Below, in pieces: positions 47,272 through 62,520 of a DNA stretch of 64,000 bases. Position 1 is the first letter of the stretch, and the number at the start of each line of letters is the position of its first letter. The translations under genes and the position numbers were made by a program. Source of the stretch: an uncultured Pelagibacteraceae bacterium (lineage in GTDB: Bacteria; Pseudomonadota; Alphaproteobacteria; Pelagibacterales; AG-422-B15); NCBI GenBank assembly GCA_902614655.1, contig CACMLX010000005.1:2643-66642 (forward strand), given 5' to 3'. The notes under the pieces are model-generated. The model saw nothing but the letters and a program-made list of their open reading frames with translations. It did not search any database and was not told the origin of the DNA.

Positions 47272-49680
47272 TTATTGCCTTAAATTTTTACCGGTTTGGT
47301 CATAACAAGCATTATCAACAATTGAGGCATTATAAAACTCTCCATTTATTTCAACTTGCAAAACTTCTTTGGATTTTAATAAATCATTGTTCAAGTATGC
47401 AAAAGCAATACTTTTTTGCACATAGTGGCCGAAGCCTCCAGATGTTACATATCCGATACATACTTCATTCTGCATAACAGCTTCATTGCTAGTCACATCT
47501 ATGTTGTCAGTTTCAATTACCAAGGAAAATAATCTGTGATTGCTATCATCTTTAACTGCAGCGTCTTTACCAATAAAATCTTTATCCCAATTTATAAATG
47601 CAGAAAGGCCAGTTTCTTTTGGAGTATAGTCAGGTCTAAAATCTAGTGTCCATGCGCCCCAATTTTTTTCTAGTCTCATAGACATCAAAGCTCTTCCGCC
47701 AAAAGGTTTAATGTTGAATTCTTCTCCTGCATCCTCAATAGCCTCATACAGCTTGATTTGATAGTGTGGAGCTACATATATTTCATATCCCAATTCTCCA
47801 GTAAATGACAACCGGTTGACTAATGCAGGAACACCAGCAACAAACATTTGTCTAGAATCTCTAAATTTAAATGACTCATTAGAAACATCTTCTCTTACCA
47901 ATAATTGCAGTAAATTTCTAGACTTTGGGCCAGAAATAGCAAGGCCGTGATAATCATCAGATCTGTTTTTATAAATGACCTCATATTGATCTAGATGTTG
48001 TTCAAACCATCGTCGATGCATTTCCTGAGCGGCACCAGATCCATAAACCATAAAATGATTTTCACTAATACACGAAACTGTAAGGTCCCCATATAATTTA
48101 CCTTTTTTAGATAGCATTGGACTTAGTGCTATGCGTCCAACTTTAGGTATTCTACCTGCCAAAATATAATCCAAAAATTTTCTTGAGTCTTTTCCCTTAA
48201 ATTCATGTTTAGAAAAATTAGCAATCTCTGTTACTCCAACGTTTTCTCTTACATTTTTTACTTCATTTGAAACATAGTTATGGGATCGAGAGCGCTTGAT
48301 AGTTGGTTCTTCGTAAGCATCATCAGGATTATCAGCAAACCATAGGACATTTTCGAGTCCAAAGCTGTCACCCATAACTGCTCCCATGTTAACGAAGCGA
48401 TCATATAAAGCTGTAGTTTTTTGTTTCCTTCCTTTTGGCAAAGTCTCATTTGGAAATGTCATAATAAATCTTCGTTCATAATTTTCAGATGATTTAATTG
48501 TTCCATAATGTGGAGATGCATAATCACCAAACCGTGCGACATCCATCGCCCAAACATCTATGGAAGGTTCACCATCAATAATCCATTCTGCAATACATTT
48601 GCCAACACCTCCTCCTTGACAGAACCCGGCCATAACACCGACTGCTACCCAATAATTTCTCATACCTGGAACTGGTCCAATGAGAGGATTTCCATCAGGA
48701 CCAAATGTAAAAGGGCCGTTAACAATATTTTTAATTCCTGCTTTTTCCAAAGCTGGCATTCTCTCAAAACCAATGACTAATCGATCTTGAATATTTTCTA
48801 ATTTTGGTTCCAACAGTTCATGTCCAAAATCTAATGGGGTTCCCTGAACTTTCCAAGGAGTAGACTTATGTTCATATGTGCCAAGCAACATGCCTTGTCC
48901 TTCTTGTCTAAAATAGATATTACCATCAAAATCAGTTCCAACTGGTAGCCTTGTTCCCTTAGGCATCGCTGCTATTTCTGGAATTGTATCAGTGATTAAA
49001 TAATGATGCTCCATTGGCTGTACAGGCAAATTTAATCCAGCAAGTTTACTGACCTCTCTCGCCCAAAGTCCTGCAGCATTAATTACAATTTCTGTATGAA
49101 TATTGCCCTTATCAGTAAACACATCCCAGGTTCCATCTTCTCTTTGCTTAGTGTCTTTAACCTCAGTATTTGTGTAATAGTTAGCGCCATGAACTTTTGC
49201 AGATTTTGCAAATGCATATGTGACACCTGATGGATCTACTTCTCCATCGATCGGATCCCACAAAGCTGAAATATATTTATTGGGATCGATAAGAGGATTT
49301 TTTTTTGCAACCTCCTCTAATGAGATAAACTCTTGATCAAGACCCATATATCTGGCTTTTGTTCTTTCTCTTTTAAGATAATCAGCCCAAACTTCATTAG
49401 AGGCTAAATAAAACCCTCCACTTGGTTTAAAGCCAACTGAATGACCTGAAGTCTCTTCAATTTCCTTGTACAAGTTTATTGTATATGCCATCAGTCTGGA
49501 TATGTTTGGATCTGAAGAAATGACATGAACGTTTCCTGCGGCATGCCATGAGGATCCTGCTGTTAATTCTTTTCGCTCAAGGAGAACGCAGTCCTTCACC
49601 CCAAACTTTGCTAAATGGAAAAGAATAGAGCAACCTACAACTCCCCCGCCAATAACAACAACTTTAGCATGAGTTTGCAT
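47272..49680 (-). CDS. Dimethylglycine (or sarcosine) dehydrogenase: FAD DAO domain fused to a GcvT-like folate-binding domain
   Basis: N-terminal VVIGGGVVGCS, covalent-FAD-type region SSWHAAG and C-terminal aminomethyltransferase-like domains; 802 aa. Confidence 0.85.
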   Translation of the reverse strand: MQTHAKVVVIGGGVVGCSILFHLAKFGVKDCVLLERKELTAGSSWHAAGNVHVISSDPNISRLMAYTINLYKEIEETSGHSVGFKPSGGFYLASNEVWADYLKRERTKARYMGLDQEFISLEEVAKKNPLIDPNKYISALWDPIDGEVDPSGVTYAFAKSAKVHGANYYTNTEVKDTKQREDGTWDVFTDKGNIHTEIVINAAGLWAREVSKLAGLNLPVQPMEHHYLITDTIPEIAAMPKGTRLPVGTDFDGNIYFRQEGQGMLLGTYEHKSTPWKVQGTPLDFGHELLEPKLENIQDRLVIGFERMPALEKAGIKNIVNGPFTFGPDGNPLIGPVPGMRNYWVAVGVMAGFCQGGGVGKCIAEWIIDGEPSIDVWAMDVARFGDYASPHYGTIKSSENYERRFIMTFPNETLPKGRKQKTTALYDRFVNMGAVMGDSFGLENVLWFADNPDDAYEEPTIKRSRSHNYVSNEVKNVRENVGVTEIANFSKHEFKGKDSRKFLDYILAGRIPKVGRIALSPMLSKKGKLYGDLTVSCISENHFMVYGSGAAQEMHRRWFEQHLDQYEVIYKNRSDDYHGLAISGPKSRNLLQLLVREDVSNESFKFRDSRQMFVAGVPALVNRLSFTGELGYEIYVAPHYQIKLYEAIEDAGEEFNIKPFGGRALMSMRLEKNWGAWTLDFRPDYTPKETGLSAFINWDKDFIGKDAAVKDDSNHRLFSLVIETDNIDVTSNEAVMQNEVCIGYVTSGGFGHYVQKSIAFAYLNNDLLKSKEVLQVEINGEFYNASIVDNACYDQTGKNLRQ

Positions 49681-49682
49681 TC

Positions 49683-50723
49683 TTAAGGTGTGAATTCTTT
49701 ATTTACCTGCTTAAGAGTTTCGTCTGTTCCATGGTGAAAATGTTTTCTCATGTCCGGCATATATTTCATCGAAATTGGTTTTTTACCAACTGCAACTGAC
49801 ATTTCTCTCACGTGATGTGCTTCGGCGCCACAACAAATTCCAATAAAGTTGATATTTTTTTCCATACAGTCTGCAGCAAATTTAGCCATTTCAAAACGAT
49901 TACAAAAAAGATTATCCAAGGCTACAGGAAATGCATTATTTCCAGGAATACAATCACATCCATCATCAGAAATATTTAAAAAACCAGGTTCCTTTTCTGT
50001 TGTTCGATAAGGCACTGGCAATCCAGCAACATGGCAAGATACTTTATCTCTTACTTTTTCTAGAAGTTTCATAGTCATATCTGGCCCTCTATAACAGTTT
50101 AAACCAACGACATTTGCACCCAAGTCTTCCATCATTTTACATGCATCTTCAGGTGTATGTCCTTCTCTTGTCTTATCTCCCCTGGGTATCGCAAAATTTG
50201 TAACTGCAATCATGCCTTCATCTTTGATTGCTTTTAGAGCAATTTTCATTTCCTCAGTCCAATTAATTGTCTCAGCGACAATAAAATCAACTCCCGCTTC
50301 CTTTGCCCACGCCACTTGCTCCTCATACATTTTCTGACATTGAATAAGAGATTGTTTATCATTTGGATCATAAATATTTGTATTTGCTACATCTCCACAA
50401 ACCATAAGATCTAAATCTTTATATTCATTAGCTGCATCTTTTGCAATTTGAAGAGCATTTTTCTGTAAAGACTCTAATAAATGTTCTTTTCCAATTATTC
50501 TTAATTTTTCTCTATGGCCATAATAAGTGAAAGCTTGTACAACATCAGATCCTGCTCTTATAAATTCTCTATGTAATTGAGTAACAACTTCTGGGTGCTC
50601 TAAAACAACTTCAGGAACAAATCCTCCTGCGGATAAGTAACCTCTTCGTTCCATGGCGAATAAATAACCTTCAGCACAAATGATTGGTCCCTCATTTAAT
50701 CTCGTTATCAGATCTTTTTTCAT
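49683..50723 (-). CDS. bhmt: Betaine-homocysteine S-methyltransferase
   Basis: Homocysteine S-methyltransferase fold with zinc-ligand Cys positions (VGLNC...GICCGAEAHHV); 346 aa. Adjacent to the DMG dehydrogenase gene. Confidence 0.8.
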   Translation of the reverse strand: MKKDLITRLNEGPIICAEGYLFAMERRGYLSAGGFVPEVVLEHPEVVTQLHREFIRAGSDVVQAFTYYGHREKLRIIGKEHLLESLQKNALQIAKDAANEYKDLDLMVCGDVANTNIYDPNDKQSLIQCQKMYEEQVAWAKEAGVDFIVAETINWTEEMKIALKAIKDEGMIAVTNFAIPRGDKTREGHTPEDACKMMEDLGANVVGLNCYRGPDMTMKLLEKVRDKVSCHVAGLPVPYRTTEKEPGFLNISDDGCDCIPGNNAFPVALDNLFCNRFEMAKFAADCMEKNINFIGICCGAEAHHVREMSVAVGKKPISMKYMPDMRKHFHHGTDETLKQVNKEFTP

Positions 50724-50834
50724 GAATGCACTCCTAATTTATTCAAACAATAAATAAAAAATTATACCTAATTTAATATTCTGTCGAATTAAAAATATGA
50801 CAAGGCTATTCTTTTTTGGAATGAATAAGCATTT

Positions 50835-52205
50835 CTAATTTGAAAACAAACGCTCATCGAGCGGATAAGTAGAAATCGTTTCGTAACCATTATTTGTTAC
50901 GACACCCTGGTCCTCAAGCTTGACCATGTGGTCCCCATTAACTTCACCCACCAAAGCCTCGACACAAAGAGTCAGTCCTGGTTCCAGAACAGCGTCAAAG
51001 GCATTTTTGACCAAACGGTCTGGGTAGGCGATCAATGGCCATTCGTCACACATCCCGACACCATGCATAGGCGATGAATACTTGAGCGCCTGATACTTGT
51101 CCTGCAACACGTGCAAAGAACGAGTTAAGTCTTCCATGTGGAGGCCGGGCTTGAGAAGCTTTGTGTTATAGCGAATGTGTTCTACTGCCTCTGCATAACT
51201 CTCGCGCATGTTAGCTGGCGCTAAACTATCTCCAATCCACCAGGTACGACTGAGATCTGCACAAATCCCATAGGGGCCGATCAAATCAGTATCAAAAGCA
51301 AGAATTTCGTTCTCAGATATGATCCTTGGCCCACATTCTTGAAACCATGGGTTGGTGCGTGGCCCTGAAGTAAGCAGTCTTGTCTCAATCCACTCGCCAC
51401 CTCTTTTAATATTTTCTGCATGGAGTACCGCCCAAACATCATCCTCTGTCACACCACCTTTTGGAATTTCTGCGCGTGCAAACTCCTCCATAACTGCCAT
51501 CGAGCGTTCACAAGAATAAATAGAACAGCGCATTGCTCGTAATTCGTGCTCGGTTTTGATAGCTCGTGCACGTTCTGTCACTTCCTCACCGTCACAGTAC
51601 TCAAGCCCCGCTCGACGGACCGCATCTAAACCTGCAGGCTGAATTTTGTCTATACCGACTTGTGTACAACCTGGAGCGTGAGTGGCAATTAAGTCTAGTA
51701 CCTCAGCTGCGAAAGCGTCAGCTGCTGGCCCAATCCGGTCACCACGGGCGAAGTAAAACATGTCCGCACCTGAGCGGCTCTCCCGAACAAGTGGATTGTA
51801 TTGGGCGAGGAATGGTGCGTTTTTATAATCCCAGAGTACCATATACCCATCAGCACAAAGTAAGCACGCCCGGAACGGATTGTGGGTGTTCCACAACTGC
51901 ATATTTGTCGTGTCAGTTGCATAACGAATATTAAGGGGATCAAACATCAATAAGCCCCCATAACCCCTGGCTACAATTGCATCAGTCAAGCGTTTGTGTC
52001 TGGCTTTGCGCATCTCAGTCAGATCTGGCAATATAAGCCCTGCATCTTGCCATTCAGCATAGGCTAATGCGGTTGGGCCAATTTCGACACGATCGCCATC
52101 ATTGATTGTTCCATCGCCCAGATGCACCCCCTGGCTTGGATCTATCTTATGATTATCGCTGTAGTAATTATTTATATTTGGTAATATTTTACGATTTATC
52201 TTCAT
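50835..52205 (-). CDS. dddP: DddP-type dimethylsulfoniopropionate (DMSP) lyase (M24 metallopeptidase fold)
   Basis: From memory of roseobacter DddP, long stretches match closely: GYGGLLMFDPLNIRYATDTTNMQLWNTHNPFRA, GGEWIETRLLTSGPRTNPWFQECGPR, MHGVGMCDEWPLIAYPD. 456 aa. GC-rich codons and a TAG stop differ from the neighbours. Confidence 0.8.
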   Translation of the reverse strand: MKINRKILPNINNYYSDNHKIDPSQGVHLGDGTINDGDRVEIGPTALAYAEWQDAGLILPDLTEMRKARHKRLTDAIVARGYGGLLMFDPLNIRYATDTTNMQLWNTHNPFRACLLCADGYMVLWDYKNAPFLAQYNPLVRESRSGADMFYFARGDRIGPAADAFAAEVLDLIATHAPGCTQVGIDKIQPAGLDAVRRAGLEYCDGEEVTERARAIKTEHELRAMRCSIYSCERSMAVMEEFARAEIPKGGVTEDDVWAVLHAENIKRGGEWIETRLLTSGPRTNPWFQECGPRIISENEILAFDTDLIGPYGICADLSRTWWIGDSLAPANMRESYAEAVEHIRYNTKLLKPGLHMEDLTRSLHVLQDKYQALKYSSPMHGVGMCDEWPLIAYPDRLVKNAFDAVLEPGLTLCVEALVGEVNGDHMVKLEDQGVVTNNGYETISTYPLDERLFSN

Positions 52206-52213
52206 TTTATTAA

Positions 52214-53356
52214 TTAAGGGTTAATTCTATTCAAATAATTTAATCTACCCACAATCTCATCCCTATCAATATAATATCCTTGGAGGTGCCTATTACCTGA
52301 ATTGGCATCATATTCTTTCCTGCCATGCAAGACTCTTCTGTTATTAAAGCTAAAAATGTCTCCAGCTTCTAATCTGAAATTGATTTCAAACATAGGGTCA
52401 TGTAGCAATGAAAGAAGTTTACGATATGCTTCATAGAAGCTATCCATAACTTCAGGACTGCAATCCATTATTCCCATATAAGCAACGCTAAACCGTATAT
52501 CATTAAAATCATTGTTGTGATCTAGCGTAAATATGGGTTTATGCATTACTCTAATTGTGTTTGCGGTGTAATCTCTATTTACAAATTTTACAGGTGTATC
52601 AAGAAGAGTCTTGAAATATTCAGCAAAATTTTCTTTCATATAGCTTGCAACTTTAAATCCATCTAACGCAACTGATTCACCACCGGTAGCATCGTTTATT
52701 AAACAATGAAGGAACTGGTAGCCAGGAGCAATTTCATAATATGGTAAGTCGATGTGATTTCTTAGAGCTGCAGCTGTATATGCTGAATTATTTGGATTAG
52801 GAATGTCGATTACTTCAAATGGTGTTTTAAAAAAAGTTTCTCTATGATGACTTATATTAGATAGAACATCAAAACCTGACTCTTTTTCAGTGGGTGCATT
52901 CTTCACGATTGAAATCCCTTTATAATGAAGTTGTTCAAGCCATTTTTTTATTCCTTCATCTCCACTAATGATTTCTTGATAATCTATTTGAATATCTTCA
53001 AAATTTGATTGCATACTATTATCCCACAAAAAATAAGGTGAACTATATTTTTTTTTACTTTTCATCGTGTAGCAGTTATGTCGAAGCCATTCGACGTCAT
53101 AGTGACTTATATGGCTTCCTTCACTCCACTCAATCTCCAACTGCCCTTTATCATTTATTGTAAACGCTTTTGGGTGAATATTTTCCGAAACATTTAGCAA
53201 GTTAAAGGTTCTCTCCCTTGCAGTAGGGTGAACCTCTGAAGGACAATTATCCCTTAACCATAAAAAATTAAATTTACTCTGCTCACCATCACTCCAATCA
53301 ATTAGAATCGATTTACCATTCTTTTTTAATGATGATATTGATGGATTCTCATTCAT
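52214..53356 (-). CDS. Gamma-butyrobetaine dioxygenase-like Fe(II)/2OG oxygenase (copy 1)
   Basis: DUF971-like N-terminal domain (ILIDWSDGEQSKFNFLWLRDNCPS) and a TauD fold with HxD (RNHIDLPYY) and distal His (NNRRVLHGRKEY); 380 aa. Confidence 0.75.
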   Translation of the reverse strand: MNENPSISSLKKNGKSILIDWSDGEQSKFNFLWLRDNCPSEVHPTARERTFNLLNVSENIHPKAFTINDKGQLEIEWSEGSHISHYDVEWLRHNCYTMKSKKKYSSPYFLWDNSMQSNFEDIQIDYQEIISGDEGIKKWLEQLHYKGISIVKNAPTEKESGFDVLSNISHHRETFFKTPFEVIDIPNPNNSAYTAAALRNHIDLPYYEIAPGYQFLHCLINDATGGESVALDGFKVASYMKENFAEYFKTLLDTPVKFVNRDYTANTIRVMHKPIFTLDHNNDFNDIRFSVAYMGIMDCSPEVMDSFYEAYRKLLSLLHDPMFEINFRLEAGDIFSFNNRRVLHGRKEYDANSGNRHLQGYYIDRDEIVGRLNYLNRINP

Positions 53357-53359
53357 ATC

Positions 53360-54334
53360 TTATTTAAATGTATTATATTTTCTGTCCCAATTCGGAAACT
53401 TACTTTTTTGATTCTTATTTAAAGTTTTCATAATTTCAATCAAAAACAAATCTCTTTGTTTTTCTAGTTCTTTAATATTGAATTTTCCTGCTTGTTTTTT
53501 TGTTCCTGAAACCATTGCTTTTTTAAGTTTGTTGGTTAATTCAGGTGCTTTCAATTTTGTCCAAGGGAGTTTTAGTGCAGGACCAAATTGTTCCAGCATG
53601 TGTTTCATGCCAGTTTCTCCACCAGCTAAATGGAACGTTAGACAAACCCCCATAAAAGCCCATCTCAATCCAGGACCATAAACAATTGCATCATCAACTT
53701 CATCCGTTGATGCTACTCCGTCATTTATTAGATGTAAGGCCTCTCGCCATAGTGCTTCTTGTAGTCTGTCTGAAATGTATCCTTCTATTTCTTTTTGAAC
53801 AATAAGTGGTCGCATTCCAATATGTTCATATAATTTTTTTAATTTTTTAACACTTATATGACTAGTTTTCTTGCCAGCTACAATCTCTACTAGAGGTAAT
53901 AAGTACACAGGATTAAATGGATGACCTACTAAAACTCTCTCAGGAAACTTACAAGCCGATTGAATTTTTGATGGTAATAAGCCTGACGAACTAGATGCGA
54001 TTATAACTCTCTTATCAACTAAATTATCAATTTGTTTGAGTATATTTTTTTTAATCTTTTCGTTTTCTGGTGCATTCTCTTGAACAAAAGTTGTATCCTT
54101 CAATGCACTAGGTAATTTTGAATAGACCTTAAGATTTCTTAATGAGGCATTTCTATTCAAACCAATTTTCTTTAAGCTTTGAAAAGCAGTTCGAACATTT
54201 ATTTTTAGCTGCTCACGTGAAACACTATTAGGGTCATATGCTTTTACAGTATAACCTTTAGCTAGAAATCTTGCAGCCCAGCCTGCACCAATTACTCCAG
54301 TACCCACAATAGTGATGACTTTATTTTGTTTCAA
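53360..54334 (-). CDS. L-carnitine dehydrogenase-like (3-hydroxyacyl-CoA dehydrogenase/lambda-crystallin family)
   Basis: Rossmann [40 protein letters not shown] and the family-typical [10 protein letters not shown]...[24 protein letters not shown]; 324 aa. Confidence 0.75.
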
Positions 54335-55215
54335 ACTTTAAGCCCAAGTTTTTTTCTGGCTTCATCTGGCCCCATAACATTAGCACCAAGATTACTAATT
54401 ATTGTCGTCGCTTTTTCAACAAGTTGACCGTTTGAAGCGTATACACCTTTTTCAAGATATAGGTTGTCTTCAAGACCAACTCTAACATTGCCTCCCAAGA
54501 GAACCGCTTGAGCAACCATCGGCATTTGATGAACCCCAATTCCAAAAGCTGCCCAGTTACTGCCCGATGGTAGCATGTCTACCATGTTTTTCATTGAACC
54601 GGTATTAGCCGGTGCCCCATAGGGAATGCCAAGACAAATTTGAAATAGAGGAGGGCTGTCAAGCAACCCCTCATCGTACATTTGATTTGCAAACCACATA
54701 TGCCCTGTATCAAAAACTTCTAACTCGGGTTTTACGCCTAATTCTTGAATTCTTTTTGCACCAATTCTTAATTGTTCAGGAGTACTAACATAAATCATGT
54801 TGCCATCGCCAAAATTAAGAGTTCCACAATCAAGGGAACATATATCTGGTAATATTTCTTCAACGTGACTTAGTCTTTCAATCGCATTAACAAAATCAGT
54901 ATTAGGTCCGAACTTTAATAGATCATCCTCAGGTCCAATTTCTATATCACCGCCCATACCACTGGTAAGATTTATTATGACATTTGTGCCACTATCTTTT
55001 ATGCGGCTCACAACCTCTTTATAAAGCTCATCGTCTCTTGATCCCTTTCCTGTATTTAAATCTCTGACATGGATATGCGCTATAGCAGCTCCAGCTGACG
55101 CTGCTTCAATTGCTGCATTAGCAATTTGCTCTGGCGTCACCGGTATGTTTGGATGTTTGTTGACTGTATCTCCTGATCCAGTAACAGCACATGAAATAAT
55201 GACGTCTCTGTTCAT
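54331..55215 (-). CDS. BKACE (beta-keto acid cleavage enzyme, DUF849) family; candidate dehydrocarnitine cleavage enzyme
   Basis: [25 protein letters not shown]...[12 protein letters not shown] and a TIM-barrel length of 294 aa. 4-nt overlap with the carnitine-dehydrogenase-like gene. Confidence 0.8.
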
Positions 55216-55254
55216 ATTTCCTTTACTAGTGAAAAAAAATTAATTTACAATTAC

Positions 55255-55268
55255 CATACTATAGTATG
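55255..55268. promoter_or_regulatory. Perfect 14-bp palindrome CATACTATAGTATG in the divergent promoter region (candidate operator)
   Basis: Read directly from the sequence. It lies in the 68-nt spacer between the BKACE-operon start (55215, minus) and the ALDH-operon start (55284, plus). Confidence 0.3.
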
Positions 55269-55283
55269 TAATCATCATCTGAA

Positions 55284-56708
55284 ATGCAAAATCTACAAAA
55301 ATTTTATATTGATGGTCAATGGGTGGCGCCACAATCTAGTAAAAAAATGCCTGTCGTAAATCCAGCCACTGAGGAAGTTATCGGTGAAGTCATATTAGGT
55401 AATGAAGAAGATGTAAATATCGCAGTAAAGGCTGCTAAAAATGCATTTATGAGTTTTTCAAAAACTTCTAAAGAAGAGAGAATGAATATTTTGAAAAATA
55501 TACGAAAAATTTCAGAAGAAAGATTTGATGACTTAGCTGATGCTATGACAATGGAGATGGGTGCACCAAGAAAAATGTCACGTGAAGCCCAAGCTGATGC
55601 AGCTATAGGTCATTTGGATGGTTTTATTAGTGCATTAGAAAAACATGAAGAAAAAATTGAGTTATCCAATACAGATATTTTATTAAAAGAACCAATTGGA
55701 GTATGTGGTTTAATCACTCCATGGAATTGGCCAATAAACCAAATCACACTAAAAGTTTTGCCAGTCATTGCAACCGGCTGTACTTGTATTTTAAAACCAT
55801 CAGAACATACGCCATTATCAGCAATGGTTTATGCCGAAATACTAGATAAAGCTGGTGTCCCTGCAGGTGTATTCAATTTAGTTCATGGTGATGGCGAGGG
55901 TGTGGGCATATCCATGTCAAGACATCCAGATATTGAGATGATGTCTTTTACCGGCTCTAAAAGAGGCGGAAAGTCGGTTACAATAGAGTCTGCTGAAACT
56001 GTCAAAAAAGTTACACTTGAGCTTGGAGGCAAGTCACCAAATTTAGTTTTTGCAGATTGTGATCTTGAGGAAAAAGTAACCGCATCTGTAAATGAATGTA
56101 TGTTTAACACTGGCCAATCATGTGACGCTCCTACCAGATTACTGGTTGAAAAAAAATGCTACAATGAAGTCGTTACAATAGCAAAAAAGGCGGCTGAAGA
56201 AATAAAAGTTGGAGACCCACAAGAGGATGGAGATCATCTAGGACCTTTATTTGATAAAATCCAATTTGATAGAGTTCAAAACATGATTCAGGTAGGAATA
56301 GATGAAGGTGCCGAAATGCTTGTTGGTGGATTGGGTAAACCTGAGGGGTTAGAAAAAGGTTGGTTTACTAAACCAACTATATTCATAAATGTTAACAACA
56401 GCATGCGAGTAGCTCAAGAAGAGATTTTTGGCCCCGTACTCGTAATAATTCCATTTGAAGATGAAAAAGAAGCTATTGAAATAGCTAATGACACACCGTA
56501 CGGACTTGCTGCATATTTACAAACAGGCGACACTGAGAGGGCAGAAAGAGTTTCAAGACAACTTAGAGCTGGCGGTGTACATGTAAACGGAGGCGGTTAT
56601 AACTACGGCTCTCCTTTTGGCGGTTATAAAGAGTCTGGAAACGGCCGCGAAGGCGGTGATATGGGGCTTGAAGATTATCTTGAAACAAAAGCATTACATA
56701 TTGCTTAA
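55284..56708 (+). CDS. NAD(P)-dependent aldehyde dehydrogenase (betaine-aldehyde / trimethylaminobutyraldehyde dehydrogenase-like)
   Basis: ITPWNWP, catalytic Glu LELGGKSP and catalytic Cys FNTGQSCDAP, EEIFGPV; 474 aa. Confidence 0.9.
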   Translation: MQNLQKFYIDGQWVAPQSSKKMPVVNPATEEVIGEVILGNEEDVNIAVKAAKNAFMSFSKTSKEERMNILKNIRKISEERFDDLADAMTMEMGAPRKMSREAQADAAIGHLDGFISALEKHEEKIELSNTDILLKEPIGVCGLITPWNWPINQITLKVLPVIATGCTCILKPSEHTPLSAMVYAEILDKAGVPAGVFNLVHGDGEGVGISMSRHPDIEMMSFTGSKRGGKSVTIESAETVKKVTLELGGKSPNLVFADCDLEEKVTASVNECMFNTGQSCDAPTRLLVEKKCYNEVVTIAKKAAEEIKVGDPQEDGDHLGPLFDKIQFDRVQNMIQVGIDEGAEMLVGGLGKPEGLEKGWFTKPTIFINVNNSMRVAQEEIFGPVLVIIPFEDEKEAIEIANDTPYGLAAYLQTGDTERAERVSRQLRAGGVHVNGGGYNYGSPFGGYKESGNGREGGDMGLEDYLETKALHIA

Positions 56709-56733
56709 AATTTAATTCAAAGCAGTAAAATTT

Positions 56734-58674
56734 ATGGAAAAATTACTGTGGCAAGCCTCCGAAAAAAGACGAAAACAATCGAACTTAATTAAATACCATC
56801 GTTATCTTAAAAAAAGCTACTCAATAAATTTTGATTATGAATATGACTCTTTATTCAACTGGAGTATAGCAAAGCCTAATTTATTTTGGACGAGTCTTTT
56901 GAGTTATTTAGATATAAACTATAGTGGCAATGAAAACCCTGCTATTAGTGAAAGTGAAAATATTTATGACAAGAAATTTTTTCCAAACTTAAAGCTTAGC
57001 TATAGTGAAAATATCATTAATAATTTAAATTCTATTCCTATACTCTATGTAAATGAAATTGGATTTAAAAAATATTACAGCAAAGAAGAAGTTGTTCATA
57101 AAGTAAATATAGTCGCTAAATATTTGAGATCTATTGGTGTTAAAAAGGGCGATAGAGTTGTAGGCATTGTAACTAATAATGCGGAAACATTGATTTCATT
57201 TCTTGCAGTAAATTCAATTGGTGCGGTATGGTCTTCTTGTTCACCAGATTTTGGTGAACAGGCTATATTAGATAGGTTTAGTCAAATAGAGCCCAAAATT
57301 TTATTTTATTCCAGCAACTACATGTATGGAGGAAAGAAATTTGAAATTTTAGAAAAAATAAAAAATGTTGAGAGTAAGCTTAATACATTGGAAGTGTCCA
57401 TATGCATTGATTATTCTCAAAAAGATAAAAGTTTTATCGATGAAAAATTAAATTTTTTTGAAGAAAACAATAGAGAATTGAATGAACTCTCTTTTGAAAG
57501 ATGTCAGTTTAATGACCCAATGTATATATTGTATTCTAGCGGTACAACTGGAAAACCAAAATGTATTGTACATAATACTGGAGGTCCATTAATCCAACAT
57601 TTAAAAGAACAGCAACTTCACTGTGAAATTTGTGAAGACGATAAGCTTTTCTATTTTACTACTTGTGGATGGATGATGTGGAATTGGCTTATTTCTGGTC
57701 TTGCTTCTAAGGCAACAGTTGTTCTTTATGAAGGGTCTCCTTTTTTTCCACAACAGGACTCACTTTTTAAGGTGGCGGAAGAAGAGGAAATTACTTGTTT
57801 TGGCACAAGCGCAAAGTTTATTGATGCGCTAAGAAATAGCCAAATTCAAATTTCAAATAAATATAAACTATTAAAATTAAAAACAATTTTAAGTACTGGA
57901 TCACCACTAGTTAGTGAGAGTTTTAATTATGTTTATAGCAATATTAAGCAAGACGTTCATTTAGCCTCTATTAGTGGTGGTACTGATATTGTTTCATGTT
58001 TTGTTGGAGGAGATCCAACCAGCGCAGTATTTTCAGGAGAAATTCAATGTGAATGTTTAGGAGTTGATGTAGATATTTTTAATGAAGATGGGATTAGTAC
58101 TCAGCAAAAAGGAGAATTAGTCTGTAAATCAGCAATTCCTTCAATGCCAATTGGGTTCTGGAAAGATGTTAATAATGAAAAATATAAAAAATCATATTTT
58201 TCAAAGTATCCTAATATTTGGACACAAGGTGACTATGCAATCAAAACAGAAAATAAAGGTTTCATAATTTTTGGGCGCTCTGACTCAACTCTCAATCCCG
58301 GAGGTATTAGAATTGGTACCGCAGAAATATATAGGTCTGTTGAAAAACTAGAAGATATCAATGAAGCTATTGTGGTTGGGCAAGAATGGAATGATGATGT
58401 CAGAATTATTTTATTTATAACCCTTAAAGCCAAAAGCCTTCTAAATGATAAATTAGTTTCTGATATTAAGGAAAATATTAAGAATTCAACCTCCATCAGA
58501 CATGTGCCTGAGAAGATAATTCAAGTTACTGATATTCCAAGAACTCGGAGCGGTAAGATAGCTGAATTGACTGTAAGAGATATTATAAATGGTAAAAAAG
58601 TTAAAAATATAGAGGCTCTTGCAAATCCTGAATGTCTTACAGAATATGAAAATATTGAAGAATTAGATTATTAG
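56734..58674 (+). CDS. Acetoacetyl-CoA synthetase
   Basis: AMP-binding motif YSSGTTGKPKCIVH, an AACS-type N terminus (LWQASEKRRKQSNL..Y) and C-terminal RTRSGKI; 646 aa. Confidence 0.85.
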   Translation: MEKLLWQASEKRRKQSNLIKYHRYLKKSYSINFDYEYDSLFNWSIAKPNLFWTSLLSYLDINYSGNENPAISESENIYDKKFFPNLKLSYSENIINNLNSIPILYVNEIGFKKYYSKEEVVHKVNIVAKYLRSIGVKKGDRVVGIVTNNAETLISFLAVNSIGAVWSSCSPDFGEQAILDRFSQIEPKILFYSSNYMYGGKKFEILEKIKNVESKLNTLEVSICIDYSQKDKSFIDEKLNFFEENNRELNELSFERCQFNDPMYILYSSGTTGKPKCIVHNTGGPLIQHLKEQQLHCEICEDDKLFYFTTCGWMMWNWLISGLASKATVVLYEGSPFFPQQDSLFKVAEEEEITCFGTSAKFIDALRNSQIQISNKYKLLKLKTILSTGSPLVSESFNYVYSNIKQDVHLASISGGTDIVSCFVGGDPTSAVFSGEIQCECLGVDVDIFNEDGISTQQKGELVCKSAIPSMPIGFWKDVNNEKYKKSYFSKYPNIWTQGDYAIKTENKGFIIFGRSDSTLNPGGIRIGTAEIYRSVEKLEDINEAIVVGQEWNDDVRIILFITLKAKSLLNDKLVSDIKENIKNSTSIRHVPEKIIQVTDIPRTRSGKIAELTVRDIINGKKVKNIEALANPECLTEYENIEELDY

Positions 58675-58690
58675 TCATATATTTTCAATT

Positions 58691-59785
58691 ATGAAGCTAG
58701 ATTTTGATTCAAAGGAATTAAGAGTATTTGATAAAGAGGAAATTTTTAAAATTCATCCCTTGTGGATACGGGAACGATCAACTGAAAAAGGGGAAGTTGA
58801 TCAAAATTCTTTTCAAAGATTATATGATCCTGAAAAAATTAAACCAGACTTGCAAATAAAGAGTGCTCAGCTACTAGCAGACAACAAAATGCACGTAGAA
58901 TTTTCTGATAACCATAGTGCAACTTATTGTTTAGATAAATTAATAACAGAAATTACAAGATCAAATGTCCTACCGCCAAAGATTTACTGGGATAAAGATG
59001 ATGCTGAGTTAAAAAAATTTAGTTTTGCCTATGGAGCAAACGAAAGTCAGCAGCTGTTTGAAATTTTAAAATTTTATCATCAGTATGGTTACGTTGTGGT
59101 CGAAGATTTGCCAGCTAAGGATGGAGAAGTTATAAAATTTGCTGAAAAAATTGGGTTTATTCGAGAAACTAATTTTGGAAAGCTATTTAATGTGAGGTCA
59201 CAAAAACAACCTAATGACTTGGCTTATACATCCATCGAATTAGAGTCGCATACTGATAATCCCTACAGAAAACCAGTACCATCAATTCAATTTTTATTTT
59301 GTATTGAAAACAGTTGCAAAGGCGGAGACTCCACAGTTGTAGATGGTTTCAAAGTTGCAGAGGATCTAAAAAAAGAAAATCCACAAGCTTTTAATATCCT
59401 AGTAAATACTCTAATAAATTATAAATTTGAAGATAATGATGCTATTTTAGAAAAAACTGGAAAAATTATAAAATTAAGTGCTAGAGGAGAACTCAAACAA
59501 ATAAAATATAGTAATAGATTAGACTTTGTATTTTACGATGAGCCAAAGGTTTTGGAAGAATTTTATGCTGCTAAAAGAGTTATGCATCAAATGATCAATT
59601 CAGATAAATATATATTACAATTTCATTTAGAGCCTGGTAATTTATTAATTATGAATAATTATAGAACTTTACATGGAAGGCGAAGTTACAATACATCTGA
59701 AGGAAGTCGATGGCTTCAAGGGTTATATATTGACCATGACTCTGCTGAAAGTAAATATAAACTACTCTCTAAGGAAGTAGAATGA
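58691..59785 (+). CDS. Gamma-butyrobetaine dioxygenase-like Fe(II)/2OG oxygenase (copy 2), TmpA-like by context
   Basis: DUF971-like N terminus (IFKIHPLWIRERS), HxD (ESHTDNPY) and distal His (NNYRTLHGRRSY); 364 aa. The stop overlaps the start of the HD-domain gene. Confidence 0.6.
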   Translation: MKLDFDSKELRVFDKEEIFKIHPLWIRERSTEKGEVDQNSFQRLYDPEKIKPDLQIKSAQLLADNKMHVEFSDNHSATYCLDKLITEITRSNVLPPKIYWDKDDAELKKFSFAYGANESQQLFEILKFYHQYGYVVVEDLPAKDGEVIKFAEKIGFIRETNFGKLFNVRSQKQPNDLAYTSIELESHTDNPYRKPVPSIQFLFCIENSCKGGDSTVVDGFKVAEDLKKENPQAFNILVNTLINYKFEDNDAILEKTGKIIKLSARGELKQIKYSNRLDFVFYDEPKVLEEFYAAKRVMHQMINSDKYILQFHLEPGNLLIMNNYRTLHGRRSYNTSEGSRWLQGLYIDHDSAESKYKLLSKEVE

Positions 59786-60333
59786 AGACAGTCAAGTTTA
59801 CTGAAATGAAAAAAGGATCAAAAGAAGATTATGAACTTTTGGCCGAATATGAAAAAAATTACGTAAACGAACTTCCCGATCGAATTATTAAGTCGCTAAA
59901 AAATTTAGATAGTTCATTAGATGGCTATCAGGTAACAAGACTTGAACATTCTTTACAAACTGCAACTAGAGCTGAAAAAGATGGAGCAGATGAAGAAATG
60001 ATCGTTGCAACATTGCTACATGATATTGGAGACAGTCTCGCTCCTCATAACCATAGTCAACTTATAGCAGCTATATTAAGACCTTATGTTTCTGATAGAG
60101 TTCATTGGATTATGTTGCATCATGGCCTTTTTCAAGAATATTATTATGCTCATCATTTAGGCAAAGATAGAAATTCAAGAGATAAATTTAAAGATCATCC
60201 ATACTATCAAGATGCGGTTGATTTTTGTGAAAAGTGGGATCAAAAATCTTTTGATCCCAATTATGAGTCTTTTCCGTTGGATCATTTTGAGCCGATGGTT
60301 AGAAGATTATTTTCTAAAGAACCAAATTTTTAG
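59782..60333 (+). CDS. HD-domain protein of the PhnZ/TmpB mixed-valent diiron oxygenase type (candidate C-P bond-cleaving oxygenase)
   Basis: Ligand-like pattern H (RLEHSLQ), HD (LLHDIGD), H (APHNH), H (MLHHG), D (EKWDQ); 183 aa. ATGA coupling to the upstream BBOX-like gene. Confidence 0.6.
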   Translation: MKTVKFTEMKKGSKEDYELLAEYEKNYVNELPDRIIKSLKNLDSSLDGYQVTRLEHSLQTATRAEKDGADEEMIVATLLHDIGDSLAPHNHSQLIAAILRPYVSDRVHWIMLHHGLFQEYYYAHHLGKDRNSRDKFKDHPYYQDAVDFCEKWDQKSFDPNYESFPLDHFEPMVRRLFSKEPNF

Positions 60334-61748: not shown

Positions 61749-61997
61749 ATGACATTCTATGTGTATATCATTGGTACAACTAATCCTAAGCCGAGAACAT
61801 ATGTTGGCTGGAGCAATGATATTGATAAAAGATTAAGGGCTCATAATACCTCAAAAGGTGCAAAATATACAAGAGGCAGCAAATGGAAACTTTTGTATAA
61901 AGAGATTTTCGAATCTAAATCCGATGCGATGAAGAGGGAAATTGCTTTAAAAAAAGATCGTAAATTTAGAGCGCAGTTTAGAAAGAAATTAGTTTAA
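61749..61997 (+). CDS. GIY-YIG nuclease-superfamily protein (UPF0213-like)
   Basis: FYVYIIG...TYVGWSNDIDKRLRAHN...GAKYTR... matches the GIY-(10-11)-YxG, R, E, N pattern. I start it at ATG 61749 (82 aa). Confidence 0.75.
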   Translation: MTFYVYIIGTTNPKPRTYVGWSNDIDKRLRAHNTSKGAKYTRGSKWKLLYKEIFESKSDAMKREIALKKDRKFRAQFRKKLV

Positions 61998-62411
61998 TGT
62001 CCCGTATTCACTTCTTCCTTTTTTTCTCAGTCCGTAAGGGCCAGCAATATAAATTGTAATTGGCTTAATGCCTGGTTCTAAATCAACTCGGTGTAAATTG
62101 TCAGCACTTCTAAAACCTATATAAAATTTTCCACGCCATTTTCTCTTTTTCTTGATGTTTGTCTCCCAGTACCCTCCACTTAGAATAATAGTAATATATG
62201 GAAAGGGATGATTATGTAGTCCAATTCCGTGATCATTATCTAAAATATGATGAATAAGTATATTGAAAGGAAACCACCTCGGCCTTTTTCTAAAGAGCAA
62301 ATAATATCTAGCCGTCCATGGTTTGGCCAAATGATACTCCGGGTGTGAAGGGCCTCTGTCCATCACAATTTTTTTTCGTCCTAATTTCTCTAGTATCTTA
62401 AGAAAAAGCAT
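61989..62411 (-). CDS. Hypothetical protein, possibly cupin-like
   Basis: Trimmed to ATG 62411 (141 aa) because the listed ORF runs antisense through tRNA-Arg. Contains an HNHPFPYITIILSGGYWE His-rich beta-barrel-like motif. No confident family assignment. Confidence 0.35.
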   Translation of the reverse strand: MLFLKILEKLGRKKIVMDRGPSHPEYHLAKPWTARYYLLFRKRPRWFPFNILIHHILDNDHGIGLHNHPFPYITIILSGGYWETNIKKKRKWRGKFYIGFRSADNLHRVDLEPGIKPITIYIAGPYGLRKKGRSEYGTLN

Positions 62412-62434
62412 GGTACGTGAAATATAATATAGAT

Positions 62435-62511
62435 GCGTCCGTAGCTCAACTGGATAGAGCATCAGACTTCGGATCTGAGGGTTGAGGGTTCGAATCCTTC
62501 CGGGCGCACCA
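62435..62511 (+). tRNA. tRNA-Arg (anticodon TCG)
   Basis: Hand-folded cloverleaf: acceptor GCGTCCG/CGGGCGC, D arm GCTC/GAGC, anticodon stem TCAGA/TCTGA with loop CTTCGGA, T arm GAGGG-TTCGAAT-CCTTC, encoded CCA. Confidence 0.95.
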
Positions 62512-62520
62512 GAAAAAACT

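What the first reader, a model, noticed from the sequence alone, without database searches (positions are those of the whole stretch)
50835..52205. Single-gene GC-rich insertion: a DddP-type DMSP lyase dropped into an AT-rich operon
Seen: hand counts of 60-nt lines inside this ORF give about 45%, 52% and 53% GC. Compare 23% in the downstream spacer, 28% in bhmt and 38% in the adjacent BBOX gene. Codons rare elsewhere in the window (CTG, GAC, GAG, GTC, CAG, CGG) are common, and the stop is TAG. This is the only place where long shadow ORFs appear in other frames (51566-51934 and 51695-51943), as expected when stop-poor GC-rich DNA sits in an AT-rich genome. The first 22 or so codons (MKINRKILPNINNYYSDNHKID) are AT-rich like the host, and the shift to GC-rich coding begins where conservation with DddP begins (near 52140). 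The gene starts 8 nt after the upstream BBOX stop, so it is embedded in the operon. Established: DddP is an M24-fold DMSP lyase best known from roseobacters. Inference: this is a recent horizontal acquisition of just the lyase cassette from a higher-GC donor, placed beside a transporter and betaine-demethylation genes that also handle DMSP-like osmolytes.
Basis: partly seen in the sequence, partly recalled or inferred. Interest (0 to 1): 0.7.

Follow-up and report, generated by a model that had tools for sequence, protein, structure and literature searches.

The report
Old borrowed DMSP-lyase gene in SAR11-type genome
An AT-rich marine bacterium labelled Pelagibacterales carries one GC-rich gene for the DMSP-cleaving enzyme DddP, taken from roseobacter-like bacteria; the transfer is real and involved only this gene, but it is old and the gene is still drifting towards the host's composition.

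Summary
ORF 50835-52205 (-) is the only GC-rich stretch in the window: GC 0.476 and GC3 0.438, against GC3 0.223 +/- 0.031 for 55 other ORFs. Its codon adaptation is 6.3 SD below the rest.

It is a bona fide DddP. It scores 788 bits against NCBIfam's 600-bit equivalog cut-off and is ~65% identical to solved DddP structures. All six metal ligands, Tyr366 and Asp377 are conserved.

Horizontal origin is supported by four results:
- The AT-rich-host copies form one clade (100% bootstrap) that the tree places among roseobacter/SAR116 DddPs.
- Near-isogenic relatives have empty sites.
- Only dddP, ~25 nt of leader and ~47 nt of tail are foreign.
- Substitutions run 34:4 and 29:2 GC>AT in two lineages, against 31:48 in neighbouring genes.

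"Recent" is wrong. dS between two host lineages is 0.52 for dddP and 0.65 for its neighbours. dS to GC-rich relatives is saturated.

New details:
- The ancestral ATG is now ATA, so a 10-codon extension supplies the start.
- Donors carry this dddP inside a conserved glycine-betaine island, and it again sits beside betaine genes here.

DMSP lyase activity is inferred, not tested. This is a new member of a known kind, of moderate interest.

The parts
50835..52205 (-). dddP ORF: 456 aa, TAG stop. It encodes a DddP-family M24 DMSP lyase.
   Evidence: The ORF is listed. NCBIfam NF043017 DddP equivalog scores 788.1 bits against a 600-bit cut-off, covering residues 12-453. Pfam finds Peptidase_M24 and a sub-cut-off Creatinase_N match (21.4 bits vs 22). 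It aligns without gaps to PDB 4RZY, E = 5e-202. D305, D307, D317, H381, E416, E431, Y376 and D387 are conserved. dN/dS against L018 is about 0.06.
50900..52139 (.). GC-rich core of the gene, delimited by two composition change points.
   Evidence: GC is 0.498 inside and 0.343/0.325 outside. The log-likelihood gain over a single segment is 46.
52176..52205 (-). Lineage-specific 10-codon N-terminal extension (MKINRKILPN) that supplies the present ATG start.
   Evidence: No counterpart exists in any other DddP. The sequence is identical or nearly so in 11 of 12 window-type loci checked; the search motif was not found in L105. GC is 0.20.
52173..52175 (-). Ancestral dddP start codon, now ATA (Ile11).
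   Evidence: It aligns with the ATG of the Ruegeria, HIMB11, Tropicibacter, SAR116 and gammaproteobacterial genes, and with an in-frame ATG kept in L018. It reads ATA in 11 of 12 window-type loci checked; the search motif was not found in L105.
52206..52213 (.). 8-nt gap between the stop of the upstream BBOX-like gene and the dddP start. There is no room for a promoter, so dddP is appended to the upstream operon.
50788..50834 (-). About 47-nt 3' tail that travels with dddP. It is present in the window and L018 and absent from empty sites. Boundaries are approximate.
   Evidence: Alignments A1 and A3.
50724..50787 (-). Host part of the dddP-BHMT spacer. It is homologous to the Rieske-BHMT spacer of the dddP-free relatives L091-L093 and L113, and carries a conserved T(T/C)GACAGA...TTAGGTA motif, possibly the BHMT promoter.
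   Evidence: A promoter-like match lies at 50803-50775, but the consensus scan found fewer sites than shuffled sequence gives (10 found, 15.7 expected), so a promoter is not shown.
52214..55215 (-). Upstream host operon with normal host composition: BKACE (54331-55215), L-carnitine dehydrogenase-like (53360-54334) and a gamma-butyrobetaine-hydroxylase-like TauD-family dioxygenase (52214-53356).
   Evidence: GC3 is 0.21-0.28. The BBOX-like protein is below NCBIfam's equivalog cut-offs (307 bits vs 415).
47272..50723 (-). Downstream host genes: a BHMT-like homocysteine S-methyltransferase (49683-50723) and a DMGDH-like FAD/GcvT dehydrogenase (47272-49680). This pair is the constant anchor next to dddP in both host lineages and also occurs without dddP.

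Best explanation
The ORF is a functional dddP gene encoding a binuclear-metal, M24-fold DMSP lyase.

**Origin.** It entered an AT-rich marine lineage, publicly labelled Pelagibacterales, by horizontal transfer from GC-rich, roseobacter-like Alphaproteobacteria. In bacteria of the donor type this DddP subclade sits inside a conserved island: MttB-like methyltransferase, 816-aa DMGDH-like dehydrogenase, GbdR-like regulator, DddP, ThrC-like, Kbl, Tdh. Only dddP, with about 25 nt of leader and about 47 nt of tail, was retained in the recipient.

**Placement.** The gene lies immediately upstream of the host's own BHMT-DMGDH pair. In this lineage its own leader is gone and it sits 8 nt behind the last gene of a carnitine/butyrobetaine-to-betaine operon. 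It is therefore presumably co-transcribed with that operon. Its original ATG has mutated to ATA, and an ATG 10 codons upstream now starts translation.

**Age.** The transfer predates the split of at least two host lineages. Since then the gene has been under strong purifying selection on the protein. Its synonymous sites are being driven from GC to AT by the host's mutation bias, so it is about half-way ameliorated (GC3 0.43; host 0.22; GC-rich relatives 0.58-0.89). Among close relatives it is present or absent, with recombination breakpoints at its edges.

**Shown:** family membership, conserved catalytic residues, composition, phylogeny, empty sites, divergence, and direction of substitutions.

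**Inferred:** DMSP (or DMSOP) cleavage to DMS (or DMSO) plus acrylate, co-transcription with the upstream operon, the start codon used, and the identity of the donor group.
For: **Family**
- NF043017 scores 788 bits against a 600-bit cut-off.
- The protein is about 65% identical, without gaps, to R. lacuscaerulensis DddP 4RZY.
- The six metal ligands, Tyr366 and Asp377 named in PMC4108388 are all present.

**Foreign composition**
- GC3 is 0.438 against 0.223 +/- 0.031.
- CAI-like z is -6.3.
- Change points fall at 50900 and 52139.

**Phylogeny**
- The window, two SAGs and the uncultured P0004-P0006 form a clade with 100% bootstrap.
- That clade is placed among the Ruegeria/HIMB11/SAR116/gammaproteobacterial DddPs (83-90% identical), which lie within wider Rhodobacterales DddP diversity.

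**Empty sites**
- L113 has the same Rieske gene (99% aa) and the same BHMT as L018, but only 84 nt where L018 has 1497 nt.
- L091-L093 and L110-L115 also lack dddP.

**Age**
- dS between the window and L018 is 0.52 for dddP and 0.65 for both BHMT and DMGDH.
- dS to L100 and L104 is 0.73 and 0.99. dS to GC-rich relatives is saturated.

**Amelioration**
- Polarised changes run GC>AT:AT>GC 34:4 (window), 29:2 (L018) and 111:13 (shared stem).
- The control genes BHMT+DMGDH give 31:48 and 30:48.

**Selection:** dN/dS is about 0.06.

**Not an assembly artefact:** the junctions are the same, by gene-level synteny, in the independent assemblies examined, including SAGs, roughly 1.34-Mb long-read contigs, TARA and a GOS Sanger contig.

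**Donor island:** it is conserved at 85-96% aa across roseobacters, SAR116 and a gammaproteobacterial MAG.

**Start codon shift:**
Against: - No enzyme assay exists for this protein, and I found none for any member of the 83-100% subclade. Characterised DddPs are only about 64-65% identical.
- DddP enzymes have millimolar Km values (13.8 mM for RnDddP, PMC4108388). DMSP as the physiological substrate is therefore itself debated.
- The consistent linkage to betaine genes could point to another substrate.
- The tree is neighbour-joining. Nodes placing the AT-rich clade inside the 83-90% group have only 12-45% bootstrap. The direction of transfer rests on the overall topology, composition and substitution bias, not on one well-supported node.
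- Polarising with GC-rich outgroups can overcount GC>AT changes.
- No mobility gene, tRNA or target-site duplication marks the insertion, so the integration mechanism is unknown.
- Promoter and terminator scans are no better than chance, so operon membership is inferred from spacing alone.
- The host's SAR11 subclade was not determined.
Confidence: 0.82

Rival explanations
1. Recent single-gene acquisition. The gene arrived so recently that its donor composition is essentially intact.
For: There is a sharp compositional contrast confined to one ORF. Presence varies among relatives whose BHMT is 96% identical at nucleotide level (L110 against the window).
Against: dddP has accumulated dS 0.52 between two host lineages, nearly as much as its neighbours at 0.65. 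It is only about 75% identical in nucleotides to any GC-rich relative, with saturated dS. GC3 of 0.43 is well below the 0.58-0.89 of the GC-rich relatives. GC>AT changes are numerous on the shared stem, 111:13. The leader has been lost and the start codon replaced.
Confidence: 0.05
2. The protein is DddP-like in sequence, but its main physiological substrate is not DMSP. It would act on another compound of betaine or osmolyte catabolism, for example another sulfonium or ammonium betaine, or DMSOP. That would explain why it is embedded in betaine-catabolic clusters in both donors and recipients.
For: In 9 of the 13 loci of the 83-90% group (the nine at 87-90% identity), dddP lies in an island of MttB-like, DMGDH-like and, in most, GbdR-like genes. 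In both AT-rich lineages it sits directly upstream of BHMT-DMGDH. Such neighbours are essentially absent around the 62-65% 'bulk' DddPs (three loci carry only a 50%-identical MttB-like gene). DddP enzymes have a high Km for DMSP (PMC4108388) and also cleave DMSOP (PMC10686828). A related short DddP-like family with the same catalytic residues also sits in betaine clusters.
Against: The protein passes a curated equivalog model by a wide margin. All catalytic and substrate-tunnel residues checked are identical to those of characterised DMSP lyases. DMSP and glycine betaine share transporters and are structural analogues, so co-location with betaine genes is also expected for a true DMSP lyase. 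In an IMCC1322 culture (SAR116), DMSP induced dddP and the culture made DMS (PMC4304780), though that enzyme may belong to another subclade.
Confidence: 0.1
3. The GC-rich ORF is an assembly chimera or contamination, not part of the AT-rich genome.
For: The abrupt GC change coincides almost exactly with one gene.
Against: The same gene order around dddP recurs in single-cell genomes, long-read contigs of about 1.34 Mb, TARA assemblies and a GOS Sanger contig. The exact protein is indexed in 391 collection blocks. The gene shows lineage-specific, host-directed substitutions.
Confidence: 0.01
4. The gene is ancestral in the AT-rich lineage, and its high GC is kept by amino-acid composition or selection. 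The roseobacter and SAR116 copies would be the transferred ones.
For: GC1 (0.573) and GC2 (0.418) are partly dictated by a conserved, Gly/Ala/Asp/Glu/Arg-rich protein. Bootstrap for the exact nesting is weak.
Against: Synonymous positions are the ones that deviate, at GC3 0.438. A related DddP-like family in AT-rich genomes has GC3 0.17, so the fold imposes no GC constraint. Substitutions are strongly GC>AT, which means the gene is not at equilibrium. The great majority of relatives of the host lack the gene at this site. DddP diversity is centred in Rhodobacterales.
Confidence: 0.02

Closest known systems
DddP DMSP lyases of the Roseobacter group (Ruegeria lacuscaerulensis 4RZY/4RZZ/4S00/4S01; Roseobacter denitrificans 4B28; Roseovarius nubinhibens)
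   Same: Same family and length class. The alignment is gap-free at about 65% identity. The binuclear metal site (D295, D297, D307, H371, E406, E421) and the proposed base and partner (D377, Y366) are identical. It passes NCBIfam's equivalog model.
   Different: The host is an AT-rich, roughly 1.34-Mb genome labelled Pelagibacterales. The gene carries a 10-codon N-terminal extension with a replaced start codon, and a half-ameliorated codon usage. It belongs to a distinct subclade (83-100% identity within it, about 64% to the characterised enzymes). Activity is untested.
DddP of HIMB11, Ruegeria sp. MALMAid1280, Tropicibacter, Cognatiyoonia, SAR116 SAGs and a gammaproteobacterial MAG (the 83-90% subclade)
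   Same: These are the nearest relatives outside AT-rich hosts, at 87-90% aa identity. They share the association with glycine-betaine catabolic genes.
   Different: There dddP is an internal gene of a conserved island of roughly 8-10 kb, with its own leader, and its GC is near or slightly above the host's. Here only dddP is present, fused to a host operon. The neighbouring DMGDH is the host's own, at 64% identity to the island's.
DddK, the cupin DMSP lyase regarded as the SAR11 lyase (Sun et al. 2016, cited from PMC8520302 and PMC9240709)
   Same: It catalyses the same presumed reaction (DMSP to DMS plus acrylate) in the same broad group of bacteria.
   Different: The fold is unrelated (cupin against M24). 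DddK is treated as native to SAR11, whereas dddP is usually attributed to Roseobacter and SAR116 (PMC9240709). I did not check whether this genome also has dddK, because the window does not cover it.
Short DddP-like M24 family of AT-rich marine genomes (P0331, P0309, L176, L185)
   Same: It has the same catalytic and metal residues. DddP is its best NCBIfam match. It is found next to BHMT, Rieske and DMGDH genes.
   Different: It is 337-343 aa and lacks about the first 95 residues, including Trp95. It is 37% identical overall (49% for the L176 fragment). It scores below the DddP cut-off (300-357 bits against 600). It is fully AT-adapted, with GC3 0.17. It is not in this window.

Membership tests
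DddP (M24-fold DMSP lyase) | Full-length match to the curated family model above its trusted cut-off | tested here: met
   NF043017.1 equivalog scores 788.1 bits against a 600-bit cut-off, residues 12-453 on profile positions 1-442 of 443.
DddP (M24-fold DMSP lyase) | Pita-bread M24 catalytic domain plus a creatinase-like N-terminal domain | tested here: met
   Pfam PF00557 scores 75 bits. PF01321 scores 21.4 bits, just under its 22-bit cut-off. The alignment to PDB 4RZY is gap-free over 442 residues. No structure was predicted.
DddP (M24-fold DMSP lyase) | Six ligands of the binuclear metal centre, including Asp297, which is specific to DddP relative to methionine aminopeptidases | tested here: met
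   D305, D307, D317, H381, E416 and E431 correspond to D295, D297, D307, H371, E406 and E421.
DddP (M24-fold DMSP lyase) | Proposed catalytic base Asp377 and Tyr366 in the substrate tunnel | tested here: met
   D387 and Y376 are present. W105 (Trp95) is also present.
DddP (M24-fold DMSP lyase) | Cleaves DMSP to DMS plus acrylate | not testable with these tools
   This needs an enzyme assay or heterologous expression. I found no assay for any member of the 83-100% subclade.
Horizontally acquired gene (genomic islet) | Composition and codon usage deviate from the host genome | tested here: met
   GC3 lies about 7 SD above the other ORFs. CAI-like z is -6.3. Change points fall inside the ORF.
Horizontally acquired gene (genomic islet) | Gene phylogeny is incongruent with host phylogeny | tested here: met
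   The copies from AT-rich hosts (where the host is known) form one clade with 100% bootstrap, placed among Rhodobacterales, SAR116 and gammaproteobacterial sequences. Internal nodes are weakly supported.
Horizontally acquired gene (genomic islet) | Presence/absence polymorphism with a precise empty site in close relatives | tested here: met
   L113 against L018: 95% and 91% nucleotide identity on the two sides, with 84 nt in place of 1497 nt. L110 and L091-L093 also lack the gene.
Horizontally acquired gene (genomic islet) | Mobility signatures: integrase or transposase, tRNA target, flanking direct or inverted repeats | tested here: not met
   Only short chance-level repeats were found. The nearest tRNAs are at 7846 and 62435. 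No mobility genes appear in the gene tables.
Horizontally acquired gene (genomic islet) | Recent arrival: near-identity to a donor and no divergence among recipients | tested here: not met
   dS is 0.52 between recipient lineages. dS to all GC-rich relatives is saturated, at about 75% nucleotide identity.

The most novel reading that the evidence does not exclude
This DddP subclade may not be a free-standing DMSP lyase. It could instead be a dedicated component of quaternary-amine or betaine catabolism. In GC-rich hosts it is an internal gene of a laterally mobile island of MttB-like, DMGDH-like and GbdR-like genes. After transfer into an AT-rich genome, it alone was kept, again wedged between a carnitine-to-betaine operon and the BHMT-DMGDH pair. 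A second, native, N-terminally shortened DddP-like family with the same active site occupies the same kind of neighbourhood in other AT-rich genomes. If these enzymes act on a betaine-pathway intermediate, or are induced by betaines and not by DMSP, then part of the ocean's most abundant 'DMSP lyase' gene pool is mis-assigned in both function and taxon.
Probability: 0.1. Interest if true: 0.75.

Novelty: new member of a known kind. Interest (0 to 1): 0.4.

Why it matters
[quoted passage not shown] It is usually credited to Roseobacter and SAR116, while SAR11 is credited with dddK (PMC9240709).

This locus shows a widely distributed AT-rich lineage, labelled Pelagibacterales, that carries a roseobacter-type dddP. 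The exact protein is indexed in 391 collection blocks, including GOS and TARA. Best-hit taxonomic assignment, or primers designed on roseobacter sequences, could misattribute it.

The locus is also a clean natural example of amelioration in progress. It offers a dated, single-gene import with empty-site controls and two independently decaying lineages.

The repeated linkage of this subclade to glycine-betaine catabolism, in both donors and recipients, gives a concrete and testable hint about how or when the enzyme is used.

None of this changes what DddP is or shows a new mechanism.

Tried and rejected
- **Flanking repeats or inverted repeats as transposon or integron traces.** Only 10-17-nt chance-level matches were found.
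- **Promoter and terminator scans.** Fewer promoter-like sites were found than in shuffled sequence (10 against 15.7). Terminator-like sites were at chance level. A weak hairpin lies inside the last codons of dddP. These results were not used as evidence.
- **Rfam scan of the window.** It found only two tRNAs and no rRNA that could place the host.
- **Host subclade.** Searches for 'HIMB59 + dddP' and 'SAG-MED38' gave nothing useful. Sun et al. 2016 is not held in the library. My recollection that it lists DddP or DddQ in some SAR11 strains is therefore unverified.
- **Gene-specific sweep.** I considered this because eight species-representative SAGs share 99-100% DddP. I rejected it because their flanking genes are equally similar, at 98-100% aa.
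- **Co-transfer of BHMT-DMGDH with dddP.** I considered this because donors link dddP to a DMGDH-like gene. I rejected it because these genes have host composition, occur without dddP throughout the relatives, and are only 64% identical to the island's DMGDH.
- **Host of L100** (the third context: GST-dddP-glyoxalase). Cluster look-ups returned no organism names.
- **First tree attempt.** The Biopython bootstrap tree timed out. I replaced it with my own neighbour-joining and bootstrap code.
- **Structure prediction and fold search.** Not run. About 65% identity to solved DddP structures made them unnecessary.
Full report

Yes. ORF 50835-52205 on the minus strand encodes 456 aa and ends in TAG. 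Sliding-window GC rises from 0.30-0.39 to 0.45-0.52 within the ORF and falls back on both sides.

Among 56 non-nested ORFs of at least 150 aa in the window, this one has GC 0.476 and GC3 0.438. The other 55 have GC3 0.223 +/- 0.031, with a maximum of 0.320. A two-change-point fit puts the GC-rich segment at 50900-52139, with GC 0.498 against 0.343 and 0.325. No other 1-kb window in the 64 kb reaches 0.44.

A CAI-like index referenced to all other ORFs is 0.474 against 0.689 +/- 0.034, the lowest in the window. The 8-nt gap to the upstream stop, the 111-nt spacer at 22.5% GC, and the two shadow ORFs are all as described.

Three details needed correction:
- Shadow ORFs of at least 60 aa are common in the window (36 of them). 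The 122-aa one in dddP is only the longest.
- TAG ends 12 of the 56 ORFs, so it is not distinctive.
- Similarity to DddP starts at codon 11-12, not at the composition shift near codon 22.

**2. What is the gene?**

It passes NCBIfam's equivalog model for DddP, at 788 bits against a cut-off of 600. It has the M24 domain and a weak creatinase-type N-domain. It aligns without gaps over 442 residues to the crystal structures of Ruegeria lacuscaerulensis and Roseobacter denitrificans DddP.

The RdDddP structure paper names six metal ligands (Asp295, Asp297, Asp307, His371, Glu406, Glu421). It also names Tyr366 and Asp377 as the candidate catalytic residues (PMC4108388). All eight are conserved here, as D305, D307, D317, H381, E416, E431, Y376 and D387.

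dN/dS against the copy in another host lineage is about 0.06, so the protein is under purifying selection. DMSP lyase activity is a strong inference from family membership. It has not been tested for this protein.

**3. Who carries it?**

The exact protein is indexed in 391 blocks of the assembly collection. These include TARA scaffolds and long-read contigs of about 1.34 Mb, and all ten loci examined have the same gene order. In the species-representative genome set it occurs at 95-100% identity in eight single-cell genomes labelled 'uncultured Pelagibacteraceae'. Neighbouring proteins are labelled Pelagibacterales in NCBI records. I did not verify the subclade, and the window holds no rRNA.

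**4. Is it foreign, and from where?**

The closest copies outside AT-rich hosts are 83-90% identical. They occur in Ruegeria, Tropicibacter, Cognatiyoonia, HIMB11, Marinovum, Amaricoccus, two SAR116 SAGs and a gammaproteobacterial MAG. The bulk of roseobacter DddPs are about 62-65% identical.

In a neighbour-joining tree, the window, two SAGs and three uncultured proteins (P0004-P0006) form one clade with 100% bootstrap. That clade is placed among the 83-90% group, which lies inside wider Rhodobacterales diversity. The internal nodes are weak, at 12-45%.

**5. Only dddP is foreign.**

The flanking genes have host composition and occur without dddP in relatives. Loci with BHMT 96% identical (L091-L093) have Rieske oxygenase, then 68 nt, then BHMT-DMGDH.

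The cleanest comparison is L018 against L113. L018 is SAG AG-914-G18, with the order Rieske-dddP-BHMT. L113 has a Rieske protein 99% identical, and the nucleotide identity is 95% on the left and 91% on the right. L113 has 84 nt where L018 has 1497 nt.

The inserted segment is dddP plus about 25 nt upstream and about 47 nt downstream. It overwrote the Rieske stop codon. The 3' part of the dddP-BHMT spacer is homologous to the empty-site spacer.

L110, whose BHMT is 95.9% identical in nucleotides to the window's, also lacks dddP. Across 80 metagenome loci, Rieske-BHMT-DMGDH is the commonest arrangement recognised; only five loci, all of the window type, carry dddP. No repeats, tRNA or mobility genes mark the insertion.

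**6. It is not recent.**

Between the window and L018, dS is 0.52 for dddP and 0.65 for both BHMT and DMGDH. The gene was therefore already present at or near the time these lineages split. dS to two further copies is 0.73 (L100, in an AT-rich host) and 0.99 (L104, host unknown). dS to every GC-rich relative is saturated, at about 75% nucleotide identity.

I polarised substitutions with nine GC-rich outgroups:

| Lineage or branch | GC>AT | AT>GC |
|---|---|---|
| dddP, window lineage | 34 | 4 |
| dddP, L018 lineage | 29 | 2 |
| dddP, shared stem | 111 | 13 |
| BHMT+DMGDH control, L018 | 31 | 48 |
| BHMT+DMGDH control, L091 | 30 | 48 |

The gene is thus in mid-amelioration. Its GC3 is 0.43 here and in L018, 0.52 and 0.49 in L100 and L104, 0.58-0.89 in GC-rich relatives, and 0.22 in the host. 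Outgroup bias may inflate the asymmetry somewhat, but the control genes argue against a purely methodological effect.

**7. Anatomy of the 5' end.**

The start ATG of the roseobacter, SAR116 and gammaproteobacterial genes (M-N-V/I-H-Y-S-D-N-R-K-I-D-P) is retained in frame in L018. In the window it is ATA, at 52173-52175. The window ORF instead starts at an ATG 10 codons upstream, at 52205, only 8 nt after the BBOX-like stop.

This state is found in 11 of 12 window-type loci checked; the search motif was not found in the twelfth, L105. L100 and L104 still have a conserved leader of about 85 nt that partly resembles the HIMB11/SAR116 leader. That leader is absent here. The gene therefore appears to have lost its own expression signals and become the last cistron of the BKACE / carnitine-dehydrogenase / BBOX-like operon. 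This is inferred from spacing, because the promoter and terminator scans were uninformative.

**8. Functional neighbourhood.**

The neighbouring genes are:
- **Upstream:** a carnitine/gamma-butyrobetaine-to-betaine type operon (BKACE, L-carnitine dehydrogenase-like, BBOX-like).
- **Downstream:** BHMT-like and DMGDH-like genes for betaine demethylation.
- **Beyond those:** an OpuAC-type ABC transporter.

In the GC-rich relatives at 87-90% identity, dddP is an internal gene of a conserved island. The island holds an MttB-like methyltransferase, an 816-aa DMGDH-like gene, a GbdR-like AraC regulator in most cases, DddP, a ThrC-like gene, Kbl and Tdh. It is shared at 85-96% aa identity across roseobacters, SAR116 and a gammaproteobacterial MAG. 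It is absent around the 62-65% DddPs.

This DddP subclade is therefore linked to glycine-betaine catabolism in both donors and recipients, although the recipient's betaine genes are its own (64% identical). The simplest reading is co-regulation of DMSP cleavage with the catabolism of structurally similar osmolytes that share transporters. A different physiological substrate cannot be excluded. I give that about 10%.

**9. What is known.**

dddP is well known to be laterally mobile, even reaching fungi (PMC4304780, PMC4108388). Field papers treat dddP as a Roseobacter/SAR116 gene and dddK as the SAR11 lyase (PMC9240709). One polar metagenome survey already lists Pelagibacterales among the taxa with DddP hits (PMC8520302). 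I found no locus-level description of this gene. One JGI record calls it 'Xaa-Pro aminopeptidase'.

It is a new member of a known kind. The insertion, its age, its decay and its context are now well documented, but no new mechanism is involved.

**10. Verdict.**
- Confidence in the main explanation is about 0.8.
- Interest is 0.4.

Noticed in passing
L176:3-644; L185:7001-8014; proteins P0285-P0404 (not in the window): There is an abundant family of short (337-343 aa) DddP-like M24 proteins in AT-rich marine genomes. They keep all six metal ligands, Tyr366 and Asp377, but lack about the first 95 residues of DddP. They score 300-357 bits on the DddP model (cut-off 600) and are fully AT-adapted (GC3 0.17). 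In L176 the gene lies directly upstream of BHMT. In L185 it lies next to Rieske, BHMT, DMGDH and OpuAC genes. In L186 and L187 it lies next to glutamate synthase. Its function is unknown.
   Followed up: partly
L019-L029 (e.g. L020:4731-15067): A conserved island of about 8-10 kb holds an MttB-like methyltransferase, an 816-aa DMGDH-like gene, a GbdR-like regulator, DddP, a ThrC-like gene, Kbl and Tdh. It is shared at 85-96% aa identity by Ruegeria, Tropicibacter, Cognatiyoonia, HIMB11, Amaricoccus, SAR116 SAGs and a gammaproteobacterial MAG. HIMB11 and the gammaproteobacterial MAG have DddPs 96% identical (dS 0.68). In these hosts dddP is 3-6 GC points above its flanks. The island therefore looks laterally mobile itself.
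   Followed up: partly
L100:1343-1600; L104:375-1095; L020/L025/L026/L029 upstream of dddP: A conserved non-coding leader of about 85-100 nt lies upstream of dddP in loci where the gene is not fused to an upstream operon. The core is similar to ...CA(A/T)(C/T)ATGCG(T/C)T(C/G)C.... It could be a regulator-binding site or an RNA element. It is absent from the window.
   Followed up: partly
L100:1601-3378: This is a third genomic context for the AT-rich-host DddP clade: GST, a 258-nt leader, dddP (GC3 0.52), then an overlapping glyoxalase-family gene with intermediate GC3 (0.36) that may have been co-transferred. The flanking genes have GC3 0.20-0.24. The host was not identified.
   Followed up: partly
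L116-L119, L128, L130 (downstream of DMGDH); L099:12371-13495: A different M24 protein of about 374 aa (30-37% identical to DddP, possibly creatinase- or ectoine-hydrolase-like) is a frequent native member of the BHMT-DMGDH-methyltransferase-Rieske clusters in relatives.
   Followed up: no
window 52214-60333: A large block of quaternary-amine catabolism genes lies around dddP. It includes BKACE, carnitine dehydrogenase-like and BBOX-like dioxygenase genes. Divergently transcribed are an aldehyde dehydrogenase (55284-56708), an AMP-binding ligase (56734-58674), a second TauD-family dioxygenase (58691-59785) and a faintly MIOX-like protein (59782-60333). The BBOX-like protein scores below NCBIfam's cut-offs for both gamma-butyrobetaine dioxygenase and TmpA, so its substrate is open.
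   Followed up: no
window 61989-62597 (-): This ORF has the second-highest GC3 (0.320) and second-lowest codon adaptation (0.56) in the window. It overlaps a tRNA gene (62435-62508, +) and the next ORF, so it is probably not a real gene.
   Followed up: no
L018 vs L091 and L113; window vs L110: Nucleotide identity changes abruptly at the BHMT start. For L018 against L091 it is 77% upstream and 93% downstream. L110 matches the window at 96% from the BHMT start onward and not at all upstream. The upstream boundary of BHMT therefore looks like a recombination hot spot where cassettes are exchanged (Rieske/ABC transporter, BBOX operon, dddP).
   Followed up: partly
L104:2474-2574: The contig ends in a Nextera adaptor-like sequence (CTGTCTCTTATACACATCT...). 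This is an assembly artefact in a public metagenome contig.
   Followed up: no
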